Positions 11,838-29,825 of a stretch of 64,000 bases of DNA are shown here, piece by piece. The stretch's first letter is position 1, and each line of letters begins with the position of its first letter. A program made the translations under genes and the position numbers. A model generated the notes under the pieces. That model was not told the origin of the DNA and ran no database searches. It saw nothing but the letters and a program-made list of their open reading frames with translations. This DNA comes from a virus. Location of the stretch: positions 5,388 through 69,387 of the IMG/VR virus record IMGVR_UViG_3300039106_000653. One strand, given 5' to 3'.

Positions 11838-11876
11838 AATACATCGGCTCTTCCTAAAATGGGTCGATGTATTATT
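11838..11876 (+). terminator. Hairpin terminator after the antirepressor
   Basis: AATACATCGGCTC...GGGTCGATGTATT inverted repeat. Confidence 0.55.
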
Positions 11877-12347: not shown

Positions 12348-12401
12348 TGAACCGTAAAGTAAACTCACAAGGATGTGATTATTAACTTGAGGAAATGAAT
12401 C

Positions 12402-12689: not shown

Positions 12690-12724
12690 GCCAAAATTAA
12701 AAACATATTATTAACAAACTGCCA

Positions 12725-13276: not shown

Positions 13277-13575
13277 AACACAAAGAACCAGAAGAAGGCT
13301 CATACTGGCTGCACAAGAAATCAGGTAACTACTATCAAGTTATTGTCGTAGCTAATACCAGTGAACTCAACAAAAAACCAGAAGAATATCCACCATCCAT
13401 TACTTACAAAAGATTGATTGATGGCAGTATATGGGAGCGCAGACTTTCACGGTGGTATGAATCCTACGAGCCTGCAAATACCTCTTGCGAAGAATTTAAA
13501 AATCAAATAGGTAATATCATTTATGAGCACTTAAATAAATGGAAGGTTTATTATGGCGACATCGTTAAGCACTAA
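13273..13575 (+). CDS. DUF1653-like protein
   Basis: YWLHKKSGNYYQV...YKRL.DGSIWER pattern. Confidence 0.65.
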   Translation: MKHKEPEEGSYWLHKKSGNYYQVIVVANTSELNKKPEEYPPSITYKRLIDGSIWERRLSRWYESYEPANTSCEEFKNQIGNIIYEHLNKWKVYYGDIVKH

Positions 13576-13588
13576 TAGAAGGTAAAAC

Positions 13589-14249
13589 ATGAGTGAAGCA
13601 TCAATAAACACAAGGCTTAATAATGTTTTATCAGATATTGAGAAAACTAAGTCAAATATAAAGATTGTTAAAAGAAATATAGATATTTTAACAATATTAA
13701 ACAAGAATGATGACTTGGTTAAGTACACTCTGTTTTTGATTAAGTTAAGAAAAAAACTTCACTTATTGAAAAGAACAAAAATAAAACTCAAGAATCTACA
13801 AAAAGGATTCTGGTCTAAGCATCCATATAAAATACGCAAACTTTTAGCCGAGAGAGATTATTGGAAGCAGGAGGCTATGAAATATAAGTTTATTATTGAA
13901 AAACAAGGGAATAATAATGAGTGAAGAATACAAAGAGCAATTATCGTATATAGCGAATAGCATTAATAATCTTGCCGATGATGTGTCTAAAAAAAGACAA
14001 GAGCAATTAGAATATATCAGCAACAGTCTTAGTGCGATTGCTAGTCAGATTGCTAATGAGAGATTGGCTAAGCTTAAGCTGTTGGATAATGCTAAGTTAA
14101 TCTCAGGTCTTGGCTACATAATGCAAAAAGGCGATGAATTGCATATTACTTTAGAAAATGAAGGGTACAGGATGTGCTGTAAGGATATTAAAGCATTATT
14201 AGATGAATTAGCGAGTAACTGTAATACTAACTTAAAAGACGATCAATAA
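13589..14249 (+). other. Two hypothetical genes (13589..13924 basic; 13896..14249 with an internal repeat)
   Basis: Coupled ORFs; EQLSYIANS/EQLEYISNS duplication in the second. Confidence 0.45.
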
Positions 14250-14288
14250 GTATGGTGCTATAATCAAGTTTTCACAGTAAGGAATTTA

Positions 14289-14960
14289 ATGAAGAAGCAC
14301 TCATCTGTAGTTGAATTACCCTATGTTCCAGCACCACTAAAACCGCTAAACACCAATCAAGAACGCTATATCAAATCAATCAAGACCAATACTATTACTT
14401 TTGGTATTGGTTCAGCAGGTACAGGTAAAAGCTATATCGCTGCGTCAATGGCGGCTGATATGCTTAAGTCGCGTAAAATAGATAAAATCATTGTGACACG
14501 ACCAGCGGTAGAGGCTGGTGAAAAGCTTGGGTTTTTGCCTGGATTCAAAGAAGAAAAATTTGAGGTATATCTTGACCCAGTTAAATCTATATTCGAGGAA
14601 AGACTAGGAAAAAGCCAAGCAGAGTACCTAATTAAGCGCAATATTATCGAGGGTAAGCCAATGGCTTATCTACGAGGACAGACCTTTAAAAACGCCTTTG
14701 TGTTGCTTGATGAAGCGCAGAATGTTAGTCCAGGTCAAATGTATTTATTCTTGACGCGTATAGGTGAGAACTGCAAAGTTGTAGTAGATGGTGATGTATT
14801 GCAAAAAGATATACCTGGACGATCTGGATTACAGGATGCGATAGATAAGCTTGATAATAAATTGAATGATTGTAAGTTCATCTACTTCACTATTGATGAT
14901 GTAGTTAGATCAGGAATTGTGCGTGGAATCATGGAGCTATATGCTGAACATAATAATTAA
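14289..14960 (+). CDS. phoH: PhoH family ATPase
   Basis: GSAGTGKS Walker A, RPAVEAGEKLGFLPG, YLRGQTF, DEAQN, TRIGE; extended -10 TGCTATAAT at about 14256. Confidence 0.96.
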   Translation: MKKHSSVVELPYVPAPLKPLNTNQERYIKSIKTNTITFGIGSAGTGKSYIAASMAADMLKSRKIDKIIVTRPAVEAGEKLGFLPGFKEEKFEVYLDPVKSIFEERLGKSQAEYLIKRNIIEGKPMAYLRGQTFKNAFVLLDEAQNVSPGQMYLFLTRIGENCKVVVDGDVLQKDIPGRSGLQDAIDKLDNKLNDCKFIYFTIDDVVRSGIVRGIMELYAEHNN

Positions 14961-15189
14961 CATACTGGCCTTACTGATACCGCACTTCAGGACTGACGAC
15001 TACGCACTTGTCATTAATGATGACGAGGATTTCGAGATATTGTGTTTAGCTGAAGAACTGGAAGAAGGCGAGGATTTTGACGCGTTACAGCAAATGAGTA
15101 TGCTGGTGTGGCTTAACTGTTGTTTATATGGAAGTACGGTTGGGCCGCTAAGGATAAAATTAGAGTCAGTGATGGAAAGGCTAGACTAA
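14917..15189 (+). CDS. Hypothetical acidic protein (probable start 14941)
   Basis: GGAG SD before ATG 14941. Confidence 0.45.
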   Translation: MCVESWSYMLNIIINILALLIPHFRTDDYALVINDDEDFEILCLAEELEEGEDFDALQQMSMLVWLNCCLYGSTVGPLRIKLESVMERLD

Positions 15190-15205
15190 CCACCACTGTC
15201 TAGGA

Positions 15206-15895
15206 CTAATAACCCACTAATATCTTCTTAAATGGACTAATAGTCATTGTCCATGTAACTGTATCAGGTGGGCTATCTTTATGCTTTGGAAGTACCTTAT
15301 AACCCAGTCTAACGCGTAGACACCGATCAGACTTACCCCAACGCATAATGATATTGATCCCACAACGCAAATATAGCCAGCTACCACTAGCCCAGACAAT
15401 ATTGAAGCCACTCTTTATACTCCCATCTTCATTGTATCTGTTATCGACATCATAAGTACCTGCATAGTTCACTGACTTAATGCGCTTGAAATTAGCGTTA
15501 TACAGCCATGTAGAGCAGAGATTATGCACTGGATTGCGCCATGCTAACCAAATGTATTGGTTCCAGAATGAGCGTGCTTTAGTGAAGTCTGGGCAATCTA
15601 AATCATGATGCGCCCAGTTACCTTCTTTATCACCAAGACTGCCATCATCCTTGTTGCTCCATAGGTACGCCCAGGATGGTAACTGACGCAATGCCCAGCC
15701 ATTATCACGCCTTTCTGTATCGCTGTCTTTTGCAAAAGGTAAGGCTATTGGGACAATAAAAACCCCTAACAGCCATAGTAACCTTTCAGGAATCCATAGT
15801 ATCAGCGTATGAATGATGCAGTAGATTGTTAATGGTATTGCTTTAAGTGTATTTACCATTCTCGCCAAGTGTAGGTAGAAGTTGCCGTGGCACAC
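15206..15895 (-). CDS. Conserved phage membrane-anchored protein
   Basis: Hydrophobic N-terminus; LPSWAYLW..DD...GD and WLAWRNP motifs. Confidence 0.65.
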   Translation of the reverse strand: MCHGNFYLHLARMVNTLKAIPLTIYCIIHTLILWIPERLLWLLGVFIVPIALPFAKDSDTERRDNGWALRQLPSWAYLWSNKDDGSLGDKEGNWAHHDLDCPDFTKARSFWNQYIWLAWRNPVHNLCSTWLYNANFKRIKSVNYAGTYDVDNRYNEDGSIKSGFNIVWASGSWLYLRCGINIIMRWGKSDRCLRVRLGYKVLPKHKDSPPDTVTWTMTISPFKKILVGY

Positions 15896-16134
15896 CAGAC
15901 ACTAACTGCAAATATAGGGCTAACTCCTGCTGGTGTTGTGTAACTGCTATTCGCTGGTACAAGAATACTGACATTATCATTTGCAGCAGTACCGTTGATT
16001 TCATTTATTTTCATAGCATTTGCTGATGTATTAAAGAACTGAAAGCCGTTTCTTAATTGTGATGCAGGAGCTACTTGCTGTGCTGTGCCGCCTACAGCTA
16101 TTGTAGACCCTGAGCCTACTGGTGGATTACGCAT
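15853..16134 (-). CDS. Small beta-rich virion-like protein
   Basis: AQQVAPA..LRNGFQFFNTS pattern; A/T/G/S-rich. Confidence 0.55.
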   Translation of the reverse strand: MRNPPVGSGSTIAVGGTAQQVAPASQLRNGFQFFNTSANAMKINEINGTAANDNVSILVPANSSYTTPAGVSPIFAVSVWCATATSTYTWREW

Positions 16135-16297
16135 TGAATATAAACCTAATAATTAATTAATCGTTGTTTAATTATACCACTTTTAACGCAAATAATAAAA
16201 AACTATTGCACTAAAACGATTTATGTGTATATGTAAAATACTCCTAAAAAACTAATGCTAAAATAACACCTCACTAATTTAACCACACGGATTCACT

Positions 16298-16615
16298 ATG
16301 GATTTAAAAGACGCAATTATTAACAAAGTAGCTGAGTATCAAAAAGATATGCACAGCAATATTGTTAAAAACAAAGTAGGCAAAGATATTCTTGAAGAAG
16401 GATTCTTGATTGCATCAGGAGTTAAGACGATTACTACTGAGCAAATGAAGCAAATATCTAAAAGCAATCCTAAATTACGCATAGCGATTGATAATGCTGC
16501 GGCACATATTCAACTAGCTAATGCCGAGGAATTTGCACAAAAAGATGATCTGCAAAATGCGTTTGATTATTTATGCGTTGGATGTGTTTTATTTGGTCAA
16601 GCCATTTATAAGTAG
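16298..16615 (+). CDS. Hypothetical protein
   Basis: ORF after an AT-rich divergent intergenic region. Confidence 0.5.
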   Translation: MDLKDAIINKVAEYQKDMHSNIVKNKVGKDILEEGFLIASGVKTITTEQMKQISKSNPKLRIAIDNAAAHIQLANAEEFAQKDDLQNAFDYLCVGCVLFGQAIYK

Positions 16616-16624
16616 GTAAATCTA

Positions 16625-17071
16625 ATGAACTTTGAAGAATTTTACGCATCAATAGAATCTGATATTAAGGCTGTAATTAAAGCTAAATTTGAAGCAGAAA
16701 ACAAACCTGAAACATGGAATCCTAAAGGTGGTGAATGGACTATTGATATAACAGGCGAGGTTTTTACTGGTGCTACTGATCGAGAGAGTAGAGATTTTGG
16801 CACTGAGCGAGCAACTAGAGAGTTAGCACAAGCTGCAAGTGAAAAAATGCGAGTGTTTAATAGACTCATGGCTTATGTGGACGAGGTTTCAGGCGGTTGG
16901 GAGTTCACTGTTGGTTGCGATAATGCTTATATATCTTATGATATAGAAGATAATGAATATTTAGTTAGTTACGAAAAATCAGAGTTTAAAGGTCTGGGCA
17001 CAGTCTACATGCATATAGATACAGCTCATATGTTATGTAAGAAGTTAAATTCAGGCGAGGTGGTGTTATGA
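16625..17071 (+). CDS. Conserved phage hypothetical protein
   Basis: W.PKGGEW...FGTER.TRE.A pattern; SD. Confidence 0.55.
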   Translation: MNFEEFYASIESDIKAVIKAKFEAENKPETWNPKGGEWTIDITGEVFTGATDRESRDFGTERATRELAQAASEKMRVFNRLMAYVDEVSGGWEFTVGCDNAYISYDIEDNEYLVSYEKSEFKGLGTVYMHIDTAHMLCKKLNSGEVVL

Positions 17072-17520: not shown

Positions 17521-20500
17521 CTAGGCCGCTATCTTGGTGTATTGCCTTATCAGGTATTCCATGCTCTTATCTCTTAACCTATCAGCCTCAAGCTTAAGTA
17601 ACTTAGCCTTACCTGATTTACCATCTTTCTCAGCTTTAGTCGCTGCCGCCATCTTGCCATTAGCTTGATTGATACGGTGATTTATCTCGTCACCCAATTC
17701 GGCTAATTGTGCTTCCTCTGGCGTTAATTTAGAGCCAACTGATGCTTCTGCTGATAGATCATTCACTCTAGCAATATAGCGGTAAAACAGCTTCTCCTTA
17801 AGCGCATCATCATCTTGTGCTAAAACCCATCTATCAACAAAAGGCGATACCGTTTGTTTGCCTCTAGCTTCACGACTAGGGTTTTCAATGAACTGCTTAA
17901 TCAGTGTATTGAATACCACTGGGAACGGCATGTAGGTTCTAGCTATCTCTCTGACTTCTTCAGGATATACATCAAAGCCTAATTTAGCCATTTCTTGCGC
18001 AAACATTTTGTATTCTTCTGGCGTAGTCTTTCTGCCTTGCAATGCCTTAGCTTTGTTATCTTTAGCAAACTTAGCATTGGTCAGTGAGTTTCCAAATGCG
18101 TTAACATCCATACCGACATTTGCTATGCCTTTGAATGGTTGCGGCGTGATAGATTGCATAAACCAGATTGCAGGATGATCTGAAATAGCGGTATCTGATG
18201 GTGCTACTGGTGATGCTATTTTGATTGCACCATAAACCATTTCTGTTAATGTCTCGCCTGCCGACTGATTGCCTTGAGTGAACTTAGCCAAGTTAACCGC
18301 AGTAGACCATGCTAGTTGTGGTAAGCCGAAGCCTACTGGGATTTTAGCGTAAACACCATTGCCTACTGGAATCGGTATATTGCGATACAAGTTAAAGTTT
18401 CCCAGTTCATCCATGTTATTTACACCAAGTTCATCATCGTCATCACCTGAGCGTAATAGTGAATACAGCATATAACCTGCAATGATGTAGGAGTACAGCC
18501 TGTATTGACCACGCTTAGTTTGAAGCGATTGAGCTAATTGGTGTGCTGATGTCGCTGCTGGCTGGGCAAACATCCATAACGCTCTAATAGGTGACATAAT
18601 TCTGCCACGCTTACTAAAGTTAAATAAGTTTAGCGATGTGGTTGCTGCTGTTTTGACATCTACATTCTGCTCACGCAATGCCTTGTAAACCGCATAACCT
18701 GAGATTAAGTCAAATGATTGGTTCCAAGTATGCACGACATCCATTGAGCCTTTAGTCCATGTACCTATTTTTTCCAGCTTCTCTGATAGACCTTTACTAT
18801 CGGTGTTCAGATAATCACCCCAGGTACTCGCCCCACCTTCATTCAGAAACTCAAGGATAGATAATGTCTCAGGGTCTGAGTAATCCACTGTCAAATCCAT
18901 TTTCATACCCAAGAAATTAACACCACCTTCTAGTGGCGTACCTAGTGCTGAAATCGACATAATCTTTTTCAATAGCTTCATGGTTTGCGTTGATGCAATA
19001 GCCAGTGTACGCTTACCTGCTAGGTTCATATCGACATTATCGTAACCAGGAATAGTCCTAGCACGAATATTCTCTGAACGCTCAAAGGTATCCATTAATG
19101 CGTTTTTAATTGCAAAGAATGGCATGAACTGCGTAATAAAACGACTGTTCCAAGCATTTAAGAATGCTACTGGTTTTAACAGTGTAGGTGTTTCTTCGTG
19201 GTTGATACTTCTCAATGCATCAATAGCGGCTTTATTGTTTAGATCATAAACCCAAACACTATCGCCTTTGCGCACGATAATACCATCATCACTGGTACGC
19301 TGGCCTTGTCTTTCTGCATGGCGATTAATGCCGTATTTTTCAGCAACCTCTCTAACTGCTTCTTGTTCGGTGCTGCCAGTATCAACAAAGCCTTTCACAA
19401 GATCATCATAAACCTCTGTTAGCTTATCTTTGAAGTCTAGCCAGCCATGATACCTAGCAGACTTTTCTGCTTGCTCAAAACTAGCATCAATACCATTTTG
19501 CGCAAGGCTAGTTTGGCGTCCTTGTAATCTCTTATCGTTTTGCTGATTTAGATTGCCAGTGGTAAAGAAATCATCAGAACTATCATCATTACGCGGGTCG
19601 CCTGTCAATGGTACATAGAATCCAGACTTATCGAATTTATCTGCTGCTTCTTGTGTTATCTTGCCATTCTTGATGTCTTGTTGCAGCTTGTAAGCATTCA
19701 TTGCGTACACATGATTAGCAACTTTTTCTATCAATCCTTTATCAAGCACTCGCTCAATATTTGCCATGTGCTTTTGCGCCGTGGCGTTATTATAACCACC
19801 CGCTAAACCTATCTCATGCTTTTGTACGGTCGGGTCAATAATATCTGGGCTATTCATTGCAGCTTCAAACTGATTAACTTTTTTAGTTGCTCGATCTAAA
19901 GCATTCGCTAATCGTTCTCTTTCCCCTGCAATTTCTGATGAAGTCATCATCGGGTCTGGATTATTGTTAAAAGCATCTAACTCTTGAAATGCTTCTTGCT
20001 CCTTTTCCTTGTAGCCTTTCAGTAAGTTTTGGTTGGCGATCTGAGCGTATCTAGCAGTCATCCATTGACCTGTCATTTCTTTAGTGGCTCGGTAATCTTT
20101 CCAACCTGCTTTATTCATTACGGCACGAATTGATTTGCCAATGTCATCACCGAACTTCAGCATAATTTCTTTTTCAAACGCTTTCTTGCGCTCCACTGCA
20201 CGATCTTTAGCCATAACCAACTGCGCCGCTTTAATAGCATCAGGTAGCTTGCGCGTCCATACATCGAATGGTCTAGTTGCATCGGCAAATAATTCAACTA
20301 GCTTATCCGCAGTATCATTCCATGTATCGCGTCTTTCTGGCATACGACCAGATTGCAAGATTTGATTAAACTCGTCTAAAGATCGTGGTGTCTCGGTATT
20401 ATCGCCTAGTACAGTTCTTTTTGCCCTATCAGCAATGTTAGATGCAATACTAAATCTGATTTCGTTGTTGTCACCAGCATTAGCAGGAGCACTGTGCATT

Positions 20501-23500
20501 TCCTTACCGTTATACATCACAATAACATCACTATTGGGCGTGTCTTGTGTTGATTCTATCGGTGTATTCTTGCGCTGCTCTGCTGTTAGATATTGTCTTG
20601 CTTGTACATTGCGTGATTCTACTTCGCCTGCTAATCGTTTATATCTTTCTGACGAAGTAAGCTTTCCTTTACCATACTTTAATACTGCAATTTCATTAGT
20701 CCATGAGTTATACAAAGAATCGTGCTCAAAAATATAAAATTCTAACTTTTCTTTCTGCGACCAATCAGCAACGCCTTTTCCATAATCTTTAGCCCAAGCA
20801 TTTGCCTTATCAATTAAGTCTTGCTTTGCATAATCAGCTTCTTCACTAACTTGATTTTCTCTTACGCGAATTTTATCTTCTAACTCATTGATTCTATATT
20901 TGTCTGCTAGCACATTTTGCTGTGAACTGTCTACACTTCCACCACTTGCAAAGCCTTCATTTTCCTGAATAGCGTGTTGTACTTCATGGAGTAGAATATT
21001 TAAAAACTCATCATTTGCGCCTTTAAAACTATAGGGGTCTTTAATTGTTATGGTATTTGATTCTGGGCTAAAACCTGCGCTACTTTTGATGTTGTCATCA
21101 ATTTTGACTCTAACTAGATTTAACTGTGGATATGCCGCAAATAAAGCAGGATGCACCAATACATTTACTAATGGCTCACCATTTTCACGATTAGTGGCTT
21201 TTTCAATCCATGAGTCGCTATCCATTTGACTTGGCTGTAATCTTGCATCACTATCATCAATCTCGAATCGCCATTTACCGTCAACGCCTTTAAACCAGCC
21301 AGTGTCTTTACGGACTTGCTCAGCATCATCACCTTTAGTTAGACGCTCTTGTGCTGTAGATAACTGGTATTTATCTGCTGTCTGTGCATTCTGTCCTGCG
21401 AATGATGTTCTTACGCTATCATCAGTATTACCGATATTATCAAACAACAAACTATCAGGCGCAGTTCTTAGTGCATTCTCTGCCATGTAAGCAATATCAT
21501 CAGTAGTCATCCTAGATGCGTAATTGTAGATAGCGAGTTTCTGTGCTGCGGGTAATGCTTTACCGATATTACGGATAGCTTGACGGAACCATGCTAGTAG
21601 GCGTTTTACGATGCCTAGTTGCGGGTGATATTGTACGAGGTACGCCAACGCTTCTTCGGTAATATGCTCTGCTTTAGTATCTTTAGGTACACGACCAAAA
21701 GCATCAACAACTTTCTTATTGCCGAAGTCACGCATTTGCTCTAACTGCGTAAGTATGGCTTTAAATTCTTTATCGTTTTTGCCAAGCTGTAACGCATGAA
21801 CTGCAATCTCATGATTCAGCAATCCAAAGAGATCGTTATCTTTGTCGATGTTGTTATAGACTAAATAAGTAGTATCTTTTCCGTTAGTATCATCATAGAA
21901 ACCTTGAGCTATAGATGCTTTGTAGCCGCCTATATCATAAGCTTCATCGCTACTAATGATCTTAAACTTACCTGTAGCTAATAAACGATCTACCCAGTTG
22001 CTACCGAACTTAGCATTGAATACTTTACGCATTGATTGCAGTAATGATGCTTCAGTGTGTGGGTTCTCTACTTGGGATTGTGATGTTGAATAAGCAATTC
22101 CATTAAGGCTTTCAGGTAAATCTCCTGATAAAAATGAATCCAGAAGCTCAGAAAATCCTGATCTGTCGCCTTGTTTGGATATAAGTTCTTTTGTAAGAAT
22201 AGCTCGCTTAATCGTTGCTTCGCCAATGCTAAAGCCTGCTTTTCTTGCTTGCTGCGAATGTTTTGCGTATTCGCTTTCTGTAATTTCTTTGCCAGCTTTG
22301 TTTTCAAATTTCCCGGTATTGGTATTGAATCTAGCATCATCAAACCATTGCTTGTCACTGATTGCATTTTCTACATAATCAAGGTTATCGGTGTCATAGA
22401 ATGGACTTAGCTTTGGATTGCTTACGCTGAATTTAATATCGGTATCTTTGCTTGCGTAATGCTCTTTTGCAATTTCCGATGTATGGTAGTCGAAATCAGG
22501 CTCAGGAATGTATTTTCCATCACTGTAATCAGATTGGTTTAGATCAAATGGTTTAAATAATTCAGCACCATAAGCATCATTTAGAGCCATTACAATAACT
22601 TGAGCATTACCATCTTGTGACTCAATAGATATGCCATTAACAAACTGATAAATAACAGCCTTATCATAACCAAGTTTTTGTATAAGGTTAGCAGCTTCTT
22701 TAATATATTTTGCACTCAATACGAAAGTATTATCTTTGAACTTTACTGATTTAAGCGTTATTGGTACATATTGATTGATGCTTCCATTTAAGAACTTACT
22801 TGTTTTAACAATGCCATCAGCATAGGCAGATAAGTTGACTGTTGAAACAACAAAACCTTCGCCATTATTCTTTGCTTCAGTAACGAGATTTTCTATTTTT
22901 GTATATTTAGGGTATCTACCATCTATCCATGTTTCAGCTTCAGATTGTGATTTACCTTCTACCGATGCTCTGCTATATATTGCGTCAGAAAAATTATGTG
23001 AAAGCACTGGCACATCATCACCTGAGTATTTCACAGAAGCAATCATGTGACCATTTGTTGATGTTAGTTTTCCATCGCTTATCAAAAGTCCATTTAGGTA
23101 ATATCTAACATCATCCTTAGCCATTATTGGCAACAATGCTTTTGATATATCCTTAAATGTTTTATTAATTTTAGATACATTTGCTTTTTTGATAAATGGT
23201 ACGATGTCACTTAAAAGCTGAGTTTCAAATCCATTTTGAATATATCCTTGTTTAGATATTTTTGGTGCTACTTTAGGTAATAGCCTGTTTAAGAATAATC
23301 TTGCGGCATCGGCGTAGGCTTTATCACTGGAGACTCTTTTCTCATAATCCCCTTCATCAAATAATCGCAATGAGTAAGTAATGTCATCACCAAGAAAATC
23401 ACTTGAATCCTTTACAGGTTGTGCAATACCTTTTGCTTCTGTTGGCTTATCTTTTAATTCTTTATCATTTTTTTCTGCAATAGATACAAGATGAGCTATA

Positions 23501-24717
23501 TGCGGATTACCTAATATGCTAGCGTCATTAATGTATCTATAATCTCCAACGTTAACCTTTGTATTTACAGCTAGTTTAGCAAAATCTTTATATTTATCTT
23601 TATACTCCTGGTTGCCATCTAATTCTGTAAAAGTGGAAACGAATTTTTCAACCCAATCTTGCTCTAGCTTTTTATCATCACTATAAGCAGCGTAAGTATA
23701 AAAGTCAGTGACCAAATCATTTACAATATTTTTTAACTTATCAGAAGTAAGTAAATCACTTGCAATGCTGTCGCTATCTGAAACATCATTAATTATTTTT
23801 TCTTCTGATTGCTGGCTTTGTGATTCTGTATCATCTTCAAGTTCAGACGATAATTTACCAAAACCCAATTTCTCTTTAGCTTTTCGATCTTCTATTTCTT
23901 TCGATGAAAGTCCACCTTTAACTTCATTTTCTGTAATAACACCTTTATCTAGTGCGGCCTGATAAAGATTTACACCGTCCTGCCATAGCTTTTGATACTC
24001 ACTGTTGTTAGCTATTTCAAAAGCAGTTTTAAATGCTTTTACTTCTTTTTCTTTTCTAATTCCTGATTTATAAGCAAGTTCTTCTGGTGATTTATTTGAG
24101 CTAAACGCAAACGATTCAGCACCAGCATCTAAGCCTTTGTTAAAAGCGCCTCTGACATTATCTTTTACCAATATTGGATTTTTTGCATCAGCTTCAAGGT
24201 TGATTTGTGATTCTGAATCACTAGGTAATTTAGCTACCCTAACTCGAATATTCCTTAGCTTTTCATTACTTTTTAATCTTTCAGGATAATCCTTGCTACT
24301 ACTCATTCTTGCAATACTACCTACTCCACCAGTGTATGCATTATTAACAATCGCGTCTGTTAAAATATCCTGATAAGCAACAGATAGTCCTAGTTTTTTA
24401 TTGCCTTTAGAAACTAGCTTTTCAAATTCATCCTCAGTAATGAATTTTGTTTTTTCATCAAGCACGCCTTTTATAGCATGTTTTCCATTAGGTATATTAT
24501 TGAATACATAAGCAATGACAGTACCCATATCTGACTGCTTCTGTTCATATTCTGTTTTAGGTGATTCTGCTTTGACCTCACTCACACCTGTTAAGGACTT
24601 ATAATCAAACTTAACATCAGGATAAAGCTTTTCTAATCCACCATTAGCTAAGTAGGCTTTAAACTCATTCTGTGAGATAAAATCTTCCGTTCCTGGCAAA
24701 GCATAGGTACACGCCAT
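17521..24717 (-). CDS. Giant polyvalent internal-virion/ejection protein: beta-clamp-like region, zincin-like HExxH domains, LPD23-like and LPD38-like regions
   Basis: MAKDDVRYYLNG...TNGH...IDGRYPKY (DnaN-like); HEIAVH/EEALAY; TGWFKGVDGKWRFEIDD; LHEVQHAIQ..EGFASGG and YKRLAGEVESR; C-terminal KIPVGFG region; last gene of the virion operon. Confidence 0.85.
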   Translation of the reverse strand: MACTYALPGTEDFISQNEFKAYLANGGLEKLYPDVKFDYKSLTGVSEVKAESPKTEYEQKQSDMGTVIAYVFNNIPNGKHAIKGVLDEKTKFITEDEFEKLVSKGNKKLGLSVAYQDILTDAIVNNAYTGGVGSIARMSSSKDYPERLKSNEKLRNIRVRVAKLPSDSESQINLEADAKNPILVKDNVRGAFNKGLDAGAESFAFSSNKSPEELAYKSGIRKEKEVKAFKTAFEIANNSEYQKLWQDGVNLYQAALDKGVITENEVKGGLSSKEIEDRKAKEKLGFGKLSSELEDDTESQSQQSEEKIINDVSDSDSIASDLLTSDKLKNIVNDLVTDFYTYAAYSDDKKLEQDWVEKFVSTFTELDGNQEYKDKYKDFAKLAVNTKVNVGDYRYINDASILGNPHIAHLVSIAEKNDKELKDKPTEAKGIAQPVKDSSDFLGDDITYSLRLFDEGDYEKRVSSDKAYADAARLFLNRLLPKVAPKISKQGYIQNGFETQLLSDIVPFIKKANVSKINKTFKDISKALLPIMAKDDVRYYLNGLLISDGKLTSTNGHMIASVKYSGDDVPVLSHNFSDAIYSRASVEGKSQSEAETWIDGRYPKYTKIENLVTEAKNNGEGFVVSTVNLSAYADGIVKTSKFLNGSINQYVPITLKSVKFKDNTFVLSAKYIKEAANLIQKLGYDKAVIYQFVNGISIESQDGNAQVIVMALNDAYGAELFKPFDLNQSDYSDGKYIPEPDFDYHTSEIAKEHYASKDTDIKFSVSNPKLSPFYDTDNLDYVENAISDKQWFDDARFNTNTGKFENKAGKEITESEYAKHSQQARKAGFSIGEATIKRAILTKELISKQGDRSGFSELLDSFLSGDLPESLNGIAYSTSQSQVENPHTEASLLQSMRKVFNAKFGSNWVDRLLATGKFKIISSDEAYDIGGYKASIAQGFYDDTNGKDTTYLVYNNIDKDNDLFGLLNHEIAVHALQLGKNDKEFKAILTQLEQMRDFGNKKVVDAFGRVPKDTKAEHITEEALAYLVQYHPQLGIVKRLLAWFRQAIRNIGKALPAAQKLAIYNYASRMTTDDIAYMAENALRTAPDSLLFDNIGNTDDSVRTSFAGQNAQTADKYQLSTAQERLTKGDDAEQVRKDTGWFKGVDGKWRFEIDDSDARLQPSQMDSDSWIEKATNRENGEPLVNVLVHPALFAAYPQLNLVRVKIDDNIKSSAGFSPESNTITIKDPYSFKGANDEFLNILLHEVQHAIQENEGFASGGSVDSSQQNVLADKYRINELEDKIRVRENQVSEEADYAKQDLIDKANAWAKDYGKGVADWSQKEKLEFYIFEHDSLYNSWTNEIAVLKYGKGKLTSSERYKRLAGEVESRNVQARQYLTAEQRKNTPIESTQDTPNSDVIVMYNGKEMHSAPANAGDNNEIRFSIASNIADRAKRTVLGDNTETPRSLDEFNQILQSGRMPERRDTWNDTADKLVELFADATRPFDVWTRKLPDAIKAAQLVMAKDRAVERKKAFEKEIMLKFGDDIGKSIRAVMNKAGWKDYRATKEMTGQWMTARYAQIANQNLLKGYKEKEQEAFQELDAFNNNPDPMMTSSEIAGERERLANALDRATKKVNQFEAAMNSPDIIDPTVQKHEIGLAGGYNNATAQKHMANIERVLDKGLIEKVANHVYAMNAYKLQQDIKNGKITQEAADKFDKSGFYVPLTGDPRNDDSSDDFFTTGNLNQQNDKRLQGRQTSLAQNGIDASFEQAEKSARYHGWLDFKDKLTEVYDDLVKGFVDTGSTEQEAVREVAEKYGINRHAERQGQRTSDDGIIVRKGDSVWVYDLNNKAAIDALRSINHEETPTLLKPVAFLNAWNSRFITQFMPFFAIKNALMDTFERSENIRARTIPGYDNVDMNLAGKRTLAIASTQTMKLLKKIMSISALGTPLEGGVNFLGMKMDLTVDYSDPETLSILEFLNEGGASTWGDYLNTDSKGLSEKLEKIGTWTKGSMDVVHTWNQSFDLISGYAVYKALREQNVDVKTAATTSLNLFNFSKRGRIMSPIRALWMFAQPAATSAHQLAQSLQTKRGQYRLYSYIIAGYMLYSLLRSGDDDDELGVNNMDELGNFNLYRNIPIPVGNGVYAKIPVGFGLPQLAWSTAVNLAKFTQGNQSAGETLTEMVYGAIKIASPVAPSDTAISDHPAIWFMQSITPQPFKGIANVGMDVNAFGNSLTNAKFAKDNKAKALQGRKTTPEEYKMFAQEMAKLGFDVYPEEVREIARTYMPFPVVFNTLIKQFIENPSREARGKQTVSPFVDRWVLAQDDDALKEKLFYRYIARVNDLSAEASVGSKLTPEEAQLAELGDEINHRINQANGKMAAATKAEKDGKSGKAKLLKLEADRLRDKSMEYLIRQYTKIAA

Positions 24718-25575: not shown

Positions 25576-26211
25576 TTATCCGCAGTGGTATCTAACTTTA
25601 TCTGATTGCGCTTGTTCTTCTGGTGTCATATTATTTTTATTTTTAACATTATATCCAATACCATAAGGTATCGGAGAGTTTTCATTTTCATTATCTGTAA
25701 TAACATCATGCCAGTAATTCTGAATAAAAGCCATTTGCTGTACTTGATCTTCTGTAATATTATATTCTTTACCATATGTGTTAATTATATCACTAGCTGA
25801 TAATATTTTCGTACCTAGCTTATCAAATACGGTTTCAATATTACTTTTTGCTTTTTCTAGCTTAGGTCTTTTAAGCTCATTTAATGAACTATTAATCTTT
25901 TGAATTGCTTTGTTATTGTCATTAATTTGCTTTTTTAATGACTTTTTTTGATCTTGTTTAGACGCAAGAATATCATTGTACTGTGGTAACTGCTTTACAG
26001 AATTTATTAGTGCATCAGCAAGTAGTTTGTGGCCTGAAATATATTGCTCTTTGCTTTCATTTGCAGCATCAATATACAATGCATCAACAGATTTTCTTTT
26101 AGCTAATGGCTTTTTATTTTCCTCTATCTTTAGTTCATCAACTCTTTCATTGATATATTTAAAATCTTCTTTGTCTAAGTGCTTAATGCCGCATAACGAT
26201 GGTGAACCCAT
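25576..26211 (-). CDS. Hypothetical helical protein in the ejection locus
   Basis: Coupled by a TAATG overlap; Cys near both termini. Confidence 0.6.
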   Translation of the reverse strand: MGSPSLCGIKHLDKEDFKYINERVDELKIEENKKPLAKRKSVDALYIDAANESKEQYISGHKLLADALINSVKQLPQYNDILASKQDQKKSLKKQINDNNKAIQKINSSLNELKRPKLEKAKSNIETVFDKLGTKILSASDIINTYGKEYNITEDQVQQMAFIQNYWHDVITDNENENSPIPYGIGYNVKNKNNMTPEEQAQSDKVRYHCG

Positions 26212-27113
26212 TAAATGATACCTCTATAAAATAAATCAACTAATACCAATACCACAGATTCTTCCTCGTCATTATCTTCATTAATAATTAAATCTTTATT
26301 CTTTTCTAGCTTAATAGTTAGCTTTCTTTTATCAAAGTTCTTTTGAAAGATAAGATTGCTACTACCGCCACGCAAAAACTGTGGCAATACATAGGGTGTA
26401 ATTGTTACTGCATCTGATGCAATCGTGCTACTATAAAATGTATTATCGTTAACAAATAGGCTTGGCGATAATGTTCCAGCTATAAATACATTGCTGCTAA
26501 AAAATGTATTGTCATTTGATAATAAAGGTGCTGTTACTGTGCTGTTACTAACTAAACTTGCAGAGTAAAAGCTATCGGCATCAGCAAATAATACTGGCGA
26601 TACAAAGCTATTGCCTACTACAGAATGACCGTAGAATGTATTGCTATTAGTAAATAATGTGGGTAATAAGCTACCTGAAGCAGCACTGATTGTAGGACTG
26701 AAAAAAGTATCAGCGTCAGTGTATAAGCTTGGTGATAATGTATTTAAACTAGATGCACTTGAAATAAAGAATGTATTAGTGTTACTGAACAGTGATACAG
26801 GTAATGTTGAATTACTTGTAATAGCCTCACTGTAAAAAGTATTTTGATTGCTAAATACAGAAGGCGTAATAGCATTATTACTTGTAACTGTTTCAGCAAA
26901 AAATGTATTACTATTGGAAAATAATAACGGCGAAAGCGTATTGTTATTTAATACATTTTCACTGTAAAAAGTATTGGTATTAGTATATAACGATGGAGTT
27001 AGACTTGCGCTAGATGTTACCTGTGCAGCATAAAAGCTATTGGTATTAACAACTAATGGAGGTGATAGCGCACCAGCGATTGCACCAGATGCTAACGCAA
27101 GTAGTAAGGACAT
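26211..27113 (-). CDS. Repeat-containing virion-like protein (about ten 22-aa repeats)
   Basis: Consensus PSLFxNxNTFYS; C-terminal DNDEEESVVLVLV. Confidence 0.75.
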   Translation of the reverse strand: MSLLLALASGAIAGALSPPLVVNTNSFYAAQVTSSASLTPSLYTNTNTFYSENVLNNNTLSPLLFSNSNTFFAETVTSNNAITPSVFSNQNTFYSEAITSNSTLPVSLFSNTNTFFISSASSLNTLSPSLYTDADTFFSPTISAASGSLLPTLFTNSNTFYGHSVVGNSFVSPVLFADADSFYSASLVSNSTVTAPLLSNDNTFFSSNVFIAGTLSPSLFVNDNTFYSSTIASDAVTITPYVLPQFLRGGSSNLIFQKNFDKRKLTIKLEKNKDLIINEDNDEEESVVLVLVDLFYRGII

Positions 27114-27463
27114 TAAATTATGCTGCCCTCAATTTTTCCTGTAGCCAAAACATATTGATAAATCTGCTTGACTAGATCATCCCGCCTAGTCATTCCTGCT
27201 TCTGGTTGTGCATCCAATACTTTTGATAGATCACTTGGCGATATTTCAAACATCATTGAGTCAATAGGAGTGAAGATATTATCCACTATCTCGCCTTTAC
27301 GCATTACGAGAGTAGCGCCACCATCAGCATTGAATGTTAATGGCAATGGTAAATAGTAATAAGTCTTTGGATTACACTGTATCATTAGACATCTTCCTTC
27401 CAATTTAATGCTGCCCAGAATGTAGGAGCTACCGTAGCTGCCGCACCCAACACGCCTACACAT
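27113..27463 (-). CDS. Hypothetical protein (probable start 27385)
   Basis: TAATG coupling with the preceding gene. Confidence 0.55.
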   Translation of the reverse strand: MCRRVGCGSYGSSYILGSIKLEGRCLMIQCNPKTYYYLPLPLTFNADGGATLVMRKGEIVDNIFTPIDSMMFEISPSDLSKVLDAQPEAGMTRRDDLVKQIYQYVLATGKIEGSII

Positions 27464-28878
27464 AACACCATGATTGAGCCGCCAGTAGTTGCTGCCGTAC
27501 CAGCCGCCGTGTTAGCCATCTTGATTAAGTTATCTTCAAAATATTCAAAATCAATCGCGTTATTGATATTGACAGTGGTCGGAATAATACCTTGAGCAAC
27601 AATAATTCCACCTGCGATTGCTGTCGCTGTGGTTGAAGCTGTATCTACTTGTGCGCCTTCGGTAGTTAACGCAGCAAATGTAGCACCTGTAAATGTACTC
27701 GGCGCATAAATCAAAGCCCATGTAAACGCTGTCGGCCCTGTACCTGCTGCTGCAACCATGATATTTGCTTTAGTAGGTATAACAGATGCCCTACGACTAA
27801 TATCATTCGTACCAGAAGGTCTAAGTGCAATTAATGGATACCATGAACCAATGGCTGCTGTAGCTGATATTGCTTTTGCCGCACCTGATACGTTAGCTAT
27901 AAACGATCTATAGCGCCATGTAACCCGCCGCGCAAAAATATCACCTTCTTGAACTACCGAACAGTTAACCAGTTTAAGCAATCCAGCCTGTGCAGTTACA
28001 CCTGTAGTAAATATCTCTGCACGCATAGGAAAAGAGCCTGTTCTTGACCAAGGCACAGCAAGATTGTTTACTGAGTTAAATTGATGCGCCCAAACAATAC
28101 CACCTGAACCTGTCTCGAATCCTACTCGAATAGTACCTACACCAAGCCATTGCCATTCAATAACTAAGTGCTGAGTCTTGGTAAAATCTAAATTAATACC
28201 CGATGCGCCTGTACCATTTAACAAGTCGATATTCCATGACGCTTGCACTACCTGCTCAACAGCACCTACACCACCACCTGTGAGATAGCGTCTACTAATG
28301 AATAGCGCAGTACCTACAGCTTCTAAGAAAATACCATCACCCGCGTTTGATGGGAACGTACCTTGGTCTGTAAAACACCCTACTCTCCATGTTTGGTTTG
28401 CTTGTAATACTGTAGCGTTAAAAGTAAATTGCGCTTTAGTTGATATACCGGGAGCGTAGCGGATATGATAAAGCGATTGAATCCAATACCCCGTTGCTGA
28501 GGCTGTTGTTGTATTTAAATTCTGACACGCATCGTTGTTAAGTGTAGGAGGAGCACCTGCAACCGCAATAGCAGCGGGTAACAATGTACCAGCACCGTAA
28601 GCGGCTGAATCCCAATATTCCGCTCTAATCCCATTTGCGAAGGTGTAAGCAAACGCAATACGAGGCTCAGACACCCTTAGTCTTTGAAACGAATCTACTA
28701 TTGGGTCTTGATCTGCAAAACTGATGTAATTTTGGTTTGCCCAGACGTTAGATAATTGAACAGGTACAGGGTTAGCTAATGTAGCTATGGATGTGCCGTT
28801 TTTACCGATTGTTGAAATGCTCATTATGCGAAAACCCACGCTATAGTGTAGATGCCATGTGCTAACACTGTGTTGCAC
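27385..28878 (-). CDS. Virion structural/fibre-like protein (probable start 28824)
   Basis: DSFQRLRVSEP motif; beta-rich lectin-like EWQWLGVGTIRVGF segment. Confidence 0.65.
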   Translation of the reverse strand: MQHSVSTWHLHYSVGFRIMSISTIGKNGTSIATLANPVPVQLSNVWANQNYISFADQDPIVDSFQRLRVSEPRIAFAYTFANGIRAEYWDSAAYGAGTLLPAAIAVAGAPPTLNNDACQNLNTTTASATGYWIQSLYHIRYAPGISTKAQFTFNATVLQANQTWRVGCFTDQGTFPSNAGDGIFLEAVGTALFISRRYLTGGGVGAVEQVVQASWNIDLLNGTGASGINLDFTKTQHLVIEWQWLGVGTIRVGFETGSGGIVWAHQFNSVNNLAVPWSRTGSFPMRAEIFTTGVTAQAGLLKLVNCSVVQEGDIFARRVTWRYRSFIANVSGAAKAISATAAIGSWYPLIALRPSGTNDISRRASVIPTKANIMVAAAGTGPTAFTWALIYAPSTFTGATFAALTTEGAQVDTASTTATAIAGGIIVAQGIIPTTVNINNAIDFEYFEDNLIKMANTAAGTAATTGGSIMVLCVGVLGAAATVAPTFWAALNWKEDV

Positions 28879-29522: not shown

Positions 29523-29825
29523 TTACTTGCTCTCTTTGATAATAATTGATTGCATTTTGCCGTTCTTGTCACGCTGAATAGTAGCTACTACATCACCACG
29601 CTTTTTCTCTGGTTGCTGTAACTGATCTATTCTGTCGTTCATTAATTTGATTTGGTCGAGCACAGATACTAGCTGCTGTTCGTTATAACTGATAACCACT
29701 TCCTGTGGCTTTGTTTCGATTGGCCTTGTTTCGATGATGGGTGCTTCAACCTTTTTAGGTTTCTCGCTTAAATCTATGAAACTGTCAAAGAATGGATGCT
29801 TAGCCATTACTTGCCTTTGCAACAT
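29523..29825 (-). CDS. Hypothetical protein (probable start 29807)
   Basis: C-terminal IQRDKNGKMQSI hairpin motif; TAATG-coupled to the 1504-aa gene. Confidence 0.55.
   Translation of the reverse strand: MLQRQVMAKHPFFDSFIDLSEKPKKVEAPIIETRPIETKPQEVVISYNEQQLVSVLDQIKLMNDRIDQLQQPEKKRGDVVATIQRDKNGKMQSIIIKESK

What the first reader, a model, noticed from the sequence alone, without database searches (positions are those of the whole stretch)
22580..23170. DNA polymerase III beta-clamp-like domain inside the giant injected virion protein
Seen: the 2398-aa protein contains MAKDDVRYYLNGLLISDGKLTSTNGHMIA...WIDGRYPKYTKI...FVLSAKYIKEAANLI...QVIVMAL. Known: DnaN domains II-III carry MAxQDVRYYLNG...ATDGHRL...VDGRFPDY...FNVSYVLDVL...YVVMPM, and the II/III interface forms the pocket for clamp-binding motifs (Pol III, Pol IV/V, MutS/L, Hda, ligase). 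Domain I is not evident and domain III looks shortened, so a closed ring is unlikely. Inference: a clamp decoy or recruitment platform delivered with the DNA at infection, which could sequester or tether host replication/repair factors before phage expression. I cannot confirm whether this fusion is already reported.
Basis: partly seen in the sequence, partly recalled or inferred. Interest (0 to 1): 0.85.

Follow-up and report, generated by a model that had tools for sequence, protein, structure and literature searches.

The report
Ringless sliding-clamp module in giant phage protein
A giant, probably injected, phage protein contains a cut-down copy of the bacterial DNA sliding clamp that cannot close a ring but keeps the clamp's partner-docking pocket, so the phage may use it to capture host replication or repair proteins.

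Summary
Residues 513-715 of the 2398-aa ORF (window 17521-24717, minus strand) are a true homologue of DnaN domains II-III. A profile built only from giant-protein copies hits beta clamps at E 1.6e-18. The AlphaFold2 model (pLDDT 92.3) superposes on E. coli beta residues 132-366 with Z 16.6, rmsd 2.6 A over 172 residues.

Domain I is absent, and parts of domains II and III have no counterpart. The pocket positions are the best-conserved part of the family.

The module has a family-specific N-terminal extension and an 'hFxP' tail. It recurs in 19 giant metagenomic proteins, and stand-alone phage forms of 180-204 aa also exist. I found no giant fusion in GenBank phages or plasmids, and the polyvalent-protein paper's main text never mentions a clamp.

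The function is inferred: a ringless docking platform for proteins carrying clamp-binding motifs, delivered at infection. A fold test with E. coli delta gave only weak support. Virion packaging is untested.

This scan has noted the same module before on other DNA, in at least seven other genomes.

The parts
17521..24717 (-). 2398-aa ORF: polyvalent-type giant protein, last gene of the minus-strand late (virion) block
   Evidence: Single open frame. Pfam LPD23 E 7.6e-24 and LPD38 E 1.1e-11, both above their cut-offs. phrog_14770 and phrog_21376. It lies on the same strand as terminase, portal, major head protein and tail fibre.
22573..23181 (-). Clamp-like core, residues 513-715: homologue of DnaN domains II-III with both domains shortened
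   Evidence: HMM envelope. Profile against PDB E 1.6e-18. AlphaFold2 pLDDT 92.3, pTM 0.90. Foldseek E 4.9e-9. VIA Z 16.6, rmsd 2.6 A over 172 residues, on beta 132-366. phrog_3007 E 1.8e-9 and phrog_947 E 2.3e-6.
23089..23112 (-). DVRYYLNG, residues 536-543 (equivalent to E. coli D150-G157): pocket and inner-face motif
   Evidence: R538 (E. coli R152) is invariant in 24 of 24 family members, Y540 is kept in 21 of 24 and G543 in 23 of 24.
22582..22596 (-). IVMAL, residues 708-712 (equivalent to E. coli V360-M364): last strand of the clamp fold and wall of the pocket
   Evidence: M710 (E. coli M362) is invariant in 24 of 24. This copy has A711 where 11 of 24 members and E. coli have P.
23182..23382 (-). 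Family-specific N-terminal extension, residues 446-512: two helices, a variable linker and a 'PxPIxK' strand. It is not domain I.
   Evidence: Conserved across the giant-protein copies: Y468 and P507 in at least 90%, and an 'AAxxFLEGxL' motif. Modelled as two helices with pLDDT 81-86. It is not aligned to any part of DnaN by VIA-align, whose alignment starts at model residue 79.
22540..22572 (-). Tail, residues 716-726, with LFKPF (720-724): conserved aromatic 'hFxP' motif after the clamp's C-terminal strand
   Evidence: The consensus keeps F and P here. The per-sequence listing shows the motif 7-17 residues after VMxxR, followed in relatives by K/P/A-rich linkers. pLDDT is 88-90 in both models.
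21238..21405 (-). LPD23 domain, residues 1105-1160
   Evidence: Pfam PF18838, E 7.6e-24, 83.7 bits against a cut-off of 27.
20974..20988 (-). HEVQH, residues 1244-1248: candidate zincin (MPTase-like) active-site motif
   Evidence: Motif position. Only weak Pfam matches around it: DUF6782 E 0.039 and SprT-like E 0.081.
21796..21813 (-). HEIAVH, residues 969-974: HExxxH motif, a variant that Iyer et al. describe for some polyvalent-protein MPTases
   Evidence: Motif position. The variant is described in a passage of PMC5512222. Its activity was not tested.
17932..18402 (-). LPD38 domain, residues 2106-2262
   Evidence: Pfam PF18857, E 1.1e-11, 45.7 bits against a cut-off of 27. [quoted passage not shown]

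Best explanation
Residues about 446-726 of the 2398-aa late-operon protein form a self-contained module. Its core (513-715) descends from domains II and III of the bacterial beta sliding clamp.

Shown:
- Domain I is absent, and stretches of domains II and III have no counterpart.
- The elements that build the partner-docking pocket between domains II and III are kept and are the best-conserved positions of the family.
- The module recurs in many giant multi-domain proteins of uncultured phages and, in a still shorter form, as a stand-alone phage gene.

Inferred:
- The giant protein is packaged and enters the cell with the DNA, as proposed for polyvalent proteins. It may be cut into pieces by its own zincin-like peptidase motif(s).
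- The module does not encircle DNA. It acts as a ringless docking site that binds proteins carrying clamp-binding motifs, such as the host's clamp-loader delta subunit, Pol III or repair and translesion enzymes.
- This phage is temperate and I found no DNA polymerase in it. I therefore lean towards recruiting host replication or repair enzymes to the incoming genome rather than shutting the host down, but the data do not decide between the two.

I am about 97% confident in the homology and the ringless architecture, and about 45% confident in the pocket-docking mechanism. The score below is for the whole statement.
For: Homology and fold:
- Profile A1, built from 24 giant-protein copies with no DnaN in it, hits beta clamps at E 1.6e-18 over chain residues 139-373 of 374.
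- AlphaFold2 pLDDT 92.3, pTM 0.90.
- Foldseek E 4.9e-9, probability 1.00.
- VIA Z 16.6, rmsd 2.6 A, 172 residues, on beta 132-366. This was reproduced with the longer model at Z 15.8.

Trimmed ends:
- The alignment starts at beta residue 132, and the N-extension is not aligned to domain I.
- E. coli residues about 193-229 (in patches) and 293-317 have no counterpart in at least 80% of the family.

Pocket:
- I used 20 pocket positions, listed from my recollection of the E. coli literature. In the family they have mean identity 0.66, against 0.41 for the other 161 aligned columns. None of 20000 random draws of 20 columns reached 0.66.
- The family's majority residue equals E. coli's at 18 of 20 of these positions.
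- R152 and M362 are two of the four invariant columns.

Recurrence: of 41 hits at E<=1e-3, 19 are proteins of 1453-4841 aa with one full module, 7 are 481-963 aa, 10 are 180-204 aa, 2 are DnaN-sized, 2 are false positives and 1 is the query itself.

Polyvalent context:
- LPD23 and LPD38 in this protein.
- LPD38 or LPD1 in 4 of 4 relatives scanned.
- ART-PolyVal in P0042.

Late-operon position.

No DnaN and no polymerase-sized early gene in the 69,387-base record.

Complex fold with E. coli delta residues 1-140:
- The verdict was 'weak support': score 0.41, best of 3 controls 0.02.
- The mark was reached by 58 of 80 solved complexes and 2 of 110 mismatched pairs. At 0.60 or under it was reached by only 7 of those 80 and by both mismatches that passed.
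- The runs agree in at least 75% of contacts, and the partner's pLDDT is at least 87.
- A beta-delta complex has been solved (1jql is listed), so the pass may come from memory. Delta is also a stand-in from another host.
Against: - No binding has been measured.
- In this copy only 10 of 20 pocket positions equal E. coli's. The changes include R176M, P363A and R365N.
- Unlike DnaN and the stand-alone phage forms, the chain continues past the C-terminal strand into a conserved 'hFxP' tail that is confidently placed in both models. The tail could sit in the pocket itself. I could not inspect coordinates.
- High conservation of these motifs could reflect folding needs, because they are also core motifs of the fold.
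- Neither this phage's ORFs nor its virion-block proteins carry a strict QLxLF-type peptide, so no phage-encoded ligand is evident.
- Virion packaging and injection are inferred from the protein class, not shown.
- The host is unknown.
- The complex score is in the weak band.
Confidence: 0.5

Rival explanations
1. Self-capped structural or DNA-binding module. The clamp fragment is kept as a curved, basic DNA-cradling or scaffolding piece of the giant protein. Its old pocket is filled in cis by the conserved aromatic tail (LFKPF), so it binds no host partner.
For: - A conserved aromatic residue lies 7-17 residues after the last strand in nearly all giant-protein copies. The stand-alone forms lack it and end like DnaN.
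- The tail is confidently placed, with pLDDT 88-90 and beta-bridges.
- The family has its own conserved basic motif 'YARGxxKAxKY' on the helix equivalent to the first helix of domain III. From recall, that helix lines the DNA channel in ring clamps.
Against: - Pocket positions stay close to DnaN's: the majority residue is identical at 18 of 20. That is more than a filled cavity would seem to need.
- The tail lacks the conserved Q of clamp-binding motifs.
- DNA binding was not tested.
- Where the tail sits was not seen, because no coordinates were available.
Confidence: 0.2
2. Clamp poison. The fragment pairs with host beta monomers through a retained ring-interface edge and opens, caps or blocks host clamps, stalling host replication at infection.
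For: - The strand and helix region equivalent to the start of domain III is kept and carries a family-specific conserved motif. From recall, this region holds the E. coli dimer-interface residues around 272-273.
- Phage proteins that target the clamp or its loader are known (recalled, not read here).
Against: - E. coli residues 293-317 and most of 193-229 are missing.
- A temperate phage with no DNA polymerase of its own depends on the host replisome.
- This pairing was not tested.
Confidence: 0.1
3. True processivity ring. Several copies of the module, or of the processed fragment, assemble into a closed clamp around phage DNA, the way two-domain PCNA subunits form a trimer.
For: - Two clamp-type domains per chain, as in PCNA (recalled).
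- Stand-alone relatives are annotated 'DNA clamp protein' or 'processivity factor' in GenBank records.
- Tandem copies exist in P0018 and P0042.
Against: - Both outer halves of the two-domain unit are reduced, and one of the four channel helices is lost (secondary structure compared with the alignment).
- The module is embedded in a 2398-aa chain.
- The annotations are untested labels.
Confidence: 0.08

Closest known systems
Bacterial beta sliding clamp DnaN (TIGR00663; Pfam PF00712/PF02767/PF02768; for example E. coli 2pol, 1mmi)
   Same: - Same fold and the same relative placement of domains II and III: Z 16.6, rmsd 2.6 A over 172 residues.
- Same signature motifs: DVRYYLNG, T-D/N-G-H, GR-F/Y-P-x-Y and V-M at the C-terminus.
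- Pocket positions are largely kept.
   Different: - No domain I.
- About 65 of the 246 E. coli residues from 121 to 366 have no counterpart.
- Scores are far below the curated cut-offs.
- It is embedded in a 2398-aa protein with an N-terminal extension and a C-terminal tail.
- It is not expected to form the head-to-tail dimer ring.
Stand-alone short clamp-like proteins of phages (phrog_3007; for example Burkholderia phage Bcep781 gp15 and the Vibrio phage vB_VpaM_R20L 'DNA clamp protein')
   Same: - The same cut-down DnaN II-III architecture. The window's domain matches phrog_3007 at E 1.8e-9 over profile positions 10-184 of 190.
- 6 of 6 stand-alone hits scanned belong to phrog_3007.
- They are of phage origin.
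   Different: - They are solo genes of 180-204 aa in early or replication neighbourhoods, for example near SSB and a methylase.
- They end at the clamp's natural C-terminus.
- Domain III is shorter still.
- They lack the N-extension, the 'YARGxxKAxKY' and 'SPDG' motifs, and the tail of the giant-protein form.
Polyvalent proteins of phages and conjugative elements (Iyer, Burroughs, Anand, de Souza, Aravind 2017, PMC5512222)
   Same: - A giant multi-domain protein with LPD23 and LPD38 and zincin-type motifs, encoded with late virion genes.
- The paper describes repeated accretion of solo phage modules into such proteins, and modules that 'jump-start transcription or replication' (abstract and passages).
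   Different: The paper's main text contains none of 'clamp', 'DnaN', 'sliding', 'PCNA', 'processivity', 'replisome' or 'polymerase III'. Its supplementary domain lists could not be seen. No Pfam family covers residues 505-725 above its cut-off.
E. coli beta bound by the clamp-loader delta 'wrench' (PDB 1jql, listed)
   Same: A single beta chain outside a ring presents the domain II-III pocket to delta (recalled). The window's module co-folded with delta 1-140 scored 0.41, against 0.02 for the best control (weak support).
   Different: 1jql holds a full three-domain beta chain. Here the partner is a stand-in from another organism and nothing was measured.

Membership tests
DnaN beta sliding clamp (TIGR00663 / PF00712+PF02767+PF02768) | Three clamp domains (N-terminal, central, C-terminal) in one chain | tested here: not met
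   There is no PF00712 match. Structural alignments begin at beta residue 131-132. The conserved N-extension is not aligned to domain I.
DnaN beta sliding clamp (TIGR00663 / PF00712+PF02767+PF02768) | Score above the curated family cut-offs | tested here: not met
   TIGR00663 scores 23.7 bits against 137.65. PF02767 scores 13.9 bits against 27.
DnaN beta sliding clamp (TIGR00663 / PF00712+PF02767+PF02768) | DNA-clamp fold of domains II and III in their native mutual arrangement | tested here: met
   Z 16.6, rmsd 2.6 A, 172 residues across beta 132-366. Foldseek probability 1.00. Profile E 1.6e-18.
DnaN beta sliding clamp (TIGR00663 / PF00712+PF02767+PF02768) | Conserved hydrophobic partner-binding pocket between domains II and III | tested here: inconclusive
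   The family majority equals E. coli at 18 of 20 recalled pocket positions, but this copy does so at only 10 of 20, with R176M, P363A and R365N. Whether the pocket is open was not seen, because no coordinates were available. The delta co-fold gave weak support only.
DnaN beta sliding clamp (TIGR00663 / PF00712+PF02767+PF02768) | Closed head-to-tail dimer ring that encircles DNA | not tested
   No oligomer prediction or experiment was done. The absence of domain I and the missing stretches argue against it by inference.
Polyvalent proteins (Iyer et al. 2017) | Large protein combining several unrelated domains, including LPD domains | tested here: met
   2398 aa. LPD23 at 83.7 bits and LPD38 at 45.7 bits, both with a cut-off of 27, plus the clamp-like module.
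Polyvalent proteins (Iyer et al. 2017) | Zincin-like MPTase domain (HExxH or HExxxH) | tested here: inconclusive
   HEVQH at residue 1244 and HEIAVH at residue 969. Only sub-threshold Pfam matches were found: DUF6782 E 0.039 and SprT-like E 0.081.
Polyvalent proteins (Iyer et al. 2017) | Encoded among late virion genes (phage type) | tested here: met
   It is the last gene of the minus-strand block that runs from terminase (51489-52721) through portal, major head protein, tail fibre and a transglycosylase-bearing protein.
Polyvalent proteins (Iyer et al. 2017) | Packaged in the virion and delivered with the DNA | not testable with these tools
   This needs virion mass spectrometry or infection assays.
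phrog_3007 (short phage clamp-like proteins, labelled 'RusA-like Holliday junction resolvase') | Match to the family profile over nearly its whole length | tested here: met
   E 1.8e-9, residues 525-712 on profile positions 10-184 of 190.
phrog_3007 (short phage clamp-like proteins, labelled 'RusA-like Holliday junction resolvase') | Stand-alone protein of about 190 aa | tested here: not met
   The module is embedded at residues 513-715 of a 2398-aa protein.

The most novel reading that the evidence does not exclude
Phages deliver, inside their giant polyvalent proteins, a monomeric 'pocket-only' mimic of the host sliding clamp. Within seconds of DNA entry it captures the clamp-loader delta wrench, Pol III or repair enzymes. 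It either parks them on the incoming genome to start gap filling and replication before any phage gene is expressed, or it starves the host replisome. The conserved aromatic tail would act as a built-in plug that is released when the zincin peptidase cuts the polyprotein.
Probability: 0.25. Interest if true: 0.8.

Novelty: new variant of a known kind. Interest (0 to 1): 0.62.

Why it matters
The beta clamp's pocket is the hub through which bacterial polymerases, the clamp loader, mismatch repair and replication-control proteins are organised. A ringless copy of that hub, carried in a protein that probably enters the cell with phage DNA, would be a new way for a virus to reach into host replication and repair before its own genes are expressed.

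It would add a replication-hub module to the known repertoire of polyvalent proteins, which so far includes primases, a virion RNA polymerase, methylases and peptidases.

The module is small, folds confidently in silico and has stand-alone cousins in cultured phages. The idea is therefore directly testable, and a minimal pocket domain could also serve as a reagent for studying clamp-binding motifs.

It also flags a widespread mislabel ('RusA-like resolvase') for the stand-alone phage forms.

Tried and rejected
- **Close DNA relatives.** Megablast of the gene against GenBank phages gave no match.
- **Word-indexed protein searches.**
  - With the region inside the full protein, the search found only the query itself among proteins of 1318-4197 aa.
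  - With the 301-aa segment, nothing reached E<=1e-3 among proteins of 165-527 aa.
  - With profile A1 and 'longer' lengths, it covered only 414-2000 aa and the top 8000 candidates. It returned 27 proteins, mostly ordinary DnaN, so it was not a usable survey.
- **Related loci.**
  - Alignment A1 was rejected for lack of a conserved 7-10-column stretch.
  - The single domain in viral contigs gave no relative.
  - The whole protein in genome contigs gave no relative. The host therefore stays unknown.
- **Gene context of relatives.** Cluster look-up of 10 giant relatives gave only 'hypothetical protein' or no name.
- **Annotated collections.** tblastn of the window's segment and of a typical giant-protein copy against GenBank phages and plasmids found only stand-alone short forms or ordinary dnaN, and no giant fusion.
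- **Clamp-binding peptides in this phage.** No strict Q-[LMIV]-x-[LMI]-F motif was found in 170 ORFs of at least 50 aa. In the eight virion-block proteins scanned there were only two loose matches, and one of them is the domain's own last strand. I rejected the idea that co-packaged proteins of this phage carry the ligand.
- **Is the N-extension a remnant of domain I?** Structural alignment did not support this.
- **False positives.** P0006 (12 repeats) and P0027 (10 repeats) are discoidin/EGF and YadA repeat proteins. I left them out of all alignments.
- **Literature.** I ran five full-text searches: 'polyvalent protein'+'clamp'; phage+'beta clamp'+truncated+homolog; 'sliding clamp'/polyvalent/phage/injected; 'DnaN-like'+phage (0 papers); phage-encoded/'sliding clamp'/DnaN/prophage. 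From the listings, and from passages of PMC7824862, PMC4351075 and PMC5512222, I found no description of a clamp-like module in polyvalent or virion proteins. Supplementary files, including the domain lists of Iyer et al. 2017, were not visible and could hold one.
- **Earlier scan notes.** A look-up by sequence returned nothing. A look-up by words returned 14 notes, of which 8 were shown.
- **Not attempted.** I ran no oligomer (ring) prediction and no pairing with host DnaN, because the one complex job went to delta. I did not inspect model coordinates, which no tool provides.
Full report
**What is in the window**

The finding lies in a single 2398-codon open frame on the minus strand, window 17521-24717. 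MAKDDVRYYLNG begins at residue 532 and QVIVMAL ends at residue 712, which is window 22582-23124.

The window is bases 5388-69387 of a 69,387-base IMG/VR virus record. The record is classed as linear, and CheckV estimates it to be complete.

The giant gene is the last member of a minus-strand late block that includes:
- large terminase (51489-52721);
- a portal/adaptor protein (48909-51485);
- major head protein (46462-47520);
- a tail-fibre-like protein (41069-42364);
- a 603-aa protein with a transglycosylase region;
- a 1504-aa protein with no family match;
- a 'virion structural protein' (27385-28878).

The plus-strand genes include an integrase, anti-repressors, thymidylate synthase, dUTPase, PhoH, and a Sak4-like/Gam/exonuclease/SSB recombination set. 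No ORF of DNA-polymerase size is present on the early strand. The only match to the DnaN model in the whole record is the finding itself. This is therefore a temperate phage that presumably replicates with host enzymes.

**Is the segment really clamp-like?**

With the single sequence the signal is weak but consistent:
- TIGR00663 E 2e-5, 23.7 bits against a cut-off of 137.65.
- PF02767 E 0.068.
- Best PDB sequence hit a beta clamp at E 0.048.
- phrog_947 'DNA polymerase processivity factor' E 2.3e-6, and phrog_3007 E 1.8e-9.

An exhaustive HMMER search with residues 505-725 found 41 proteins at E<=1e-3. I aligned the window's segment with the matching stretches of 23 of them. All 23 were copies embedded in larger proteins. 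I left out the stand-alone forms, the two DnaN-sized hits, the two repeat proteins, P0036 (a fragment) and two near-duplicates (P0013/P0014-type rows were partly kept; for the exact rows).

This profile contains no DnaN sequence, yet it hits beta clamps at E 1.6e-18 and aligns chain residues 139-373 of a 374-residue clamp. Of the 56 PDB sequences at E<=1, 52 are beta clamps. The other four have E>=0.42.

AlphaFold2 with this alignment gave pLDDT 92.3 and pTM 0.90. Foldseek then returned beta clamps only among the rows shown (E from 4.9e-9, probability 1.00, query TM 0.54-0.63). VIA-align gave Z 16.6, rmsd 2.6 A and 172 aligned residues, with model residues 14-210 on E. coli beta 132-366. All 50 rows shown are beta clamps. 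The homology is not in doubt.

**What kind of clamp fragment**

Domain I is missing. No PF00712 match exists, and the structural alignments start at beta residue 131-132.

I then noticed that BLAST alignments between the giant proteins start 45-100 residues upstream of the clamp core. A wider alignment shows a conserved extension. It has Y468 and P507 in at least 90% of sequences, an 'AAxxFLEGxL' motif, a variable linker and then 'PxPIxK'. A second model of residues 440-745 (pLDDT 82.5, pTM 0.85) puts two helices there. VIA-align still aligns only model residues 79-275 to beta 132-366 (Z 15.8). The extension is therefore family-specific and is not a relic of domain I.

Within domains II-III, the following E. 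coli residues have no counterpart in at least 80% of the family: 193-229 (in patches), 293-317, and shorter stretches. In total that is 65 residues between 121 and 366. From my recollection of the clamp structure, these lie in the halves of domains II and III that face domain I, within the chain and across the dimer. The retained halves are the ones that meet to form the partner-binding pocket. That placement is recalled, not computed here.

**The pocket**

I took 20 pocket positions of E. coli beta from memory of the literature:
- sub-site 1: L155, T172, G174, H175, R176, L177, P242, R246, V247, V360, M362;
- sub-site 2: R152, Y154, N320, Y323, V344, S346, P363, M364, R365.

In the 24 giant-protein copies these columns have mean identity 0.66, against 0.41 for the other 161 columns shared with E. 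coli. None of 20000 random draws reached 0.66. The family's commonest residue equals E. coli's at 18 of 20 positions. R152 and M362 are invariant in 24 of 24.

The window's own copy is more diverged, with 10 of 20 identical. Its conservative changes are L177I, R246K, V247I, V360I and M364L. Its less conservative changes are R176M, N320S, S346G, P363A and R365N. Overall identity to E. coli is 34 of 181 columns.

This pattern is what one expects if the pocket is still used. It could also reflect folding constraints, since these motifs are the core of the fold.

**The tail**

DnaN and the stand-alone phage forms end right after the V-M-P-x-R strand. The embedded copies continue with a conserved aromatic motif 7-17 residues later. 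In the window this is AELFKPF. Relatives have, for example, PLFAKY, QTFKPL, KLFAPY and YLFQPF. K/P/A-rich linkers then follow.

The tail has pLDDT 88-90 and beta-bridges in both models. It may plug the pocket in cis, or it may cover a surface exposed by the deletions. I could not see coordinates, so this is open. It is the main reason I hold the docking mechanism at under one half.

**Binding test**

- The verdict was 'weak support': median score 0.41 (runs 0.41, 0.48, 0.40), best of three controls 0.02.
- The mark was reached by 58 of 80 solved complexes and 2 of 110 mismatched pairs. At 0.60 or below it was reached by only 7 of those 80 and by both mismatches that passed.
- The runs agree in at least 75% of contacts, and the partner's pLDDT is at least 87.

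A beta-delta complex is in the PDB, so the score may reflect likeness rather than binding. Delta from E. coli is also a stand-in, because the host is unknown.

**Distribution**

The 41 hits break down as follows:

| Group | Count |
|---|---|
| The query itself | 1 |
| Proteins of 1453-4841 aa with one full module | 19 |
| Proteins of 481-963 aa, some probably fragments (P0018 and P0042 carry two modules) | 7 |
| Proteins of 180-204 aa (nine stand-alone, one fragment) | 10 |
| DnaN-sized proteins | 2 |
| False positives (a discoidin/EGF repeat protein and a YadA adhesin) | 2 |

All four giant relatives scanned carry LPD38 or LPD1, and P0042 carries ART-PolyVal. This ties the module to polyvalent proteins. 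The ten giant relatives I looked up are metagenomic and unnamed.

In GenBank phages and PLSDB plasmids, tblastn found only stand-alone short forms or ordinary dnaN. The stand-alone forms belong to phrog_3007 (6 of 6 scanned). They hit only beta clamps in the PDB (28 of 28 for P0031). In one Vibrio phage the gene sits in an early block near SSB and a DNA methylase. The ESM Atlas places the window's domain next to viral clusters of 173-207 aa, one of them with 1876 members.

Iyer et al. 2017 describe exactly this kind of repeated accretion of solo phage modules into polyvalent proteins (passage).

**Is it in print?**

The main text of Iyer et al. 2017 has no occurrence of clamp, DnaN, sliding, PCNA, processivity, replisome or polymerase III. 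The paper lists LPD38 among phage-only domains. The jumbo-phage survey from the same group mentions clamps only as replication proteins (passages).

Five full-text searches gave nothing on a clamp-like module in polyvalent or virion proteins. Supplements were closed, so an unnamed LPD could correspond to it. No Pfam family covers the segment above its cut-off.

This scan has already noted the same kind of module on other DNA. Eight notes were shown, seven of them on embedded clamp or clamp-fragment modules in giant phage proteins of other genomes. They are AI notes and I do not count them as evidence. They agree with what I tested here. One note reported QLxLF peptides in linkers of head-associated giant proteins of another phage. 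I looked for such peptides in this phage and found none.

**Verdict**

Shown:
- a true, ringless-looking DnaN II-III derivative;
- a conserved pocket;
- its own N-extension and tail;
- recurrence in giant polyvalent proteins;
- a position in the late operon of a temperate phage that has no polymerase.

Inferred:
- delivery with the DNA;
- docking of proteins that carry clamp-binding motifs;
- recruitment rather than sequestration.

I file it as a new variant of a known kind: a known fold and pocket in a new, truncated, embedded form. It does not meet the definition of a DnaN family member.

Noticed in passing
PHROG family phrog_3007; GenBank/RefSeq records NC_004333.2 (Bcep781 gp15), NC_016566.1 (EP23), PP580404.1: The stand-alone short clamp-like phage proteins are labelled 'RusA-like Holliday junction resolvase' in PHROGs and in some records. 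Other copies of the same genes are labelled 'DNA polymerase III beta subunit' or 'DNA clamp protein'. Six of six stand-alone hits match phrog_3007, and P0031 hits only beta clamps (28 of 28) in the PDB. The RusA label looks wrong.
   Followed up: partly
P0018 (481 aa) and P0042 (963 aa): Two relatives carry two clamp-like modules in one chain. P0042 also has an N-terminal ART-PolyVal domain, and its second module reaches the Pfam DNA_pol3_beta_2 cut-off (27.8 bits against 27).
   Followed up: partly
window 21796-21813 and 20974-20988 (-): The giant protein holds both an HExxxH motif (HEIAVH, residue 969) and an HExxH motif (HEVQH, residue 1244). LPD23 lies just upstream of the second. Both motif types are described for polyvalent-protein metallopeptidases, but only sub-threshold Pfam matches were found here.
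   Followed up: partly
window 4914-5198 (+): A 94-aa early-strand ORF ends in ...EQININL. This resembles the hexapeptide form of clamp-binding motifs (Q-h-x-h-x-h) at a C-terminus. Nine loose terminal matches were found in 170 ORFs, so chance is not excluded.
   Followed up: no
window 29807-34321 (-) and 25576-27113 (-): A 1504-aa protein and two proteins of 211 and 300 aa inside the virion block have no PHROG match at E<=1e-3.
   Followed up: no
window 1-17071 (+), 53761-60034 (+) and L003 1-5600: The phage is temperate and has a rich early region: integrase, two Ant-like anti-repressors, thymidylate synthase, dUTPase, PhoH-like ATPase, an HD phosphohydrolase, a tellurite-resistance-like protein, and a Sak4-like/Gam/exonuclease/SSB set. 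It has no DNA polymerase, primase or helicase of recognisable size.
   Followed up: partly
P0006 and P0027: Repeat proteins (12 discoidin F5/8-C repeats with EGF; a YadA-type adhesin) reached E 1.8e-11 and 5.4e-5 in the single-sequence HMMER search by summing many weak repeat matches. This is a reminder that multi-stretch hits in that search can be false.
   Followed up: yes
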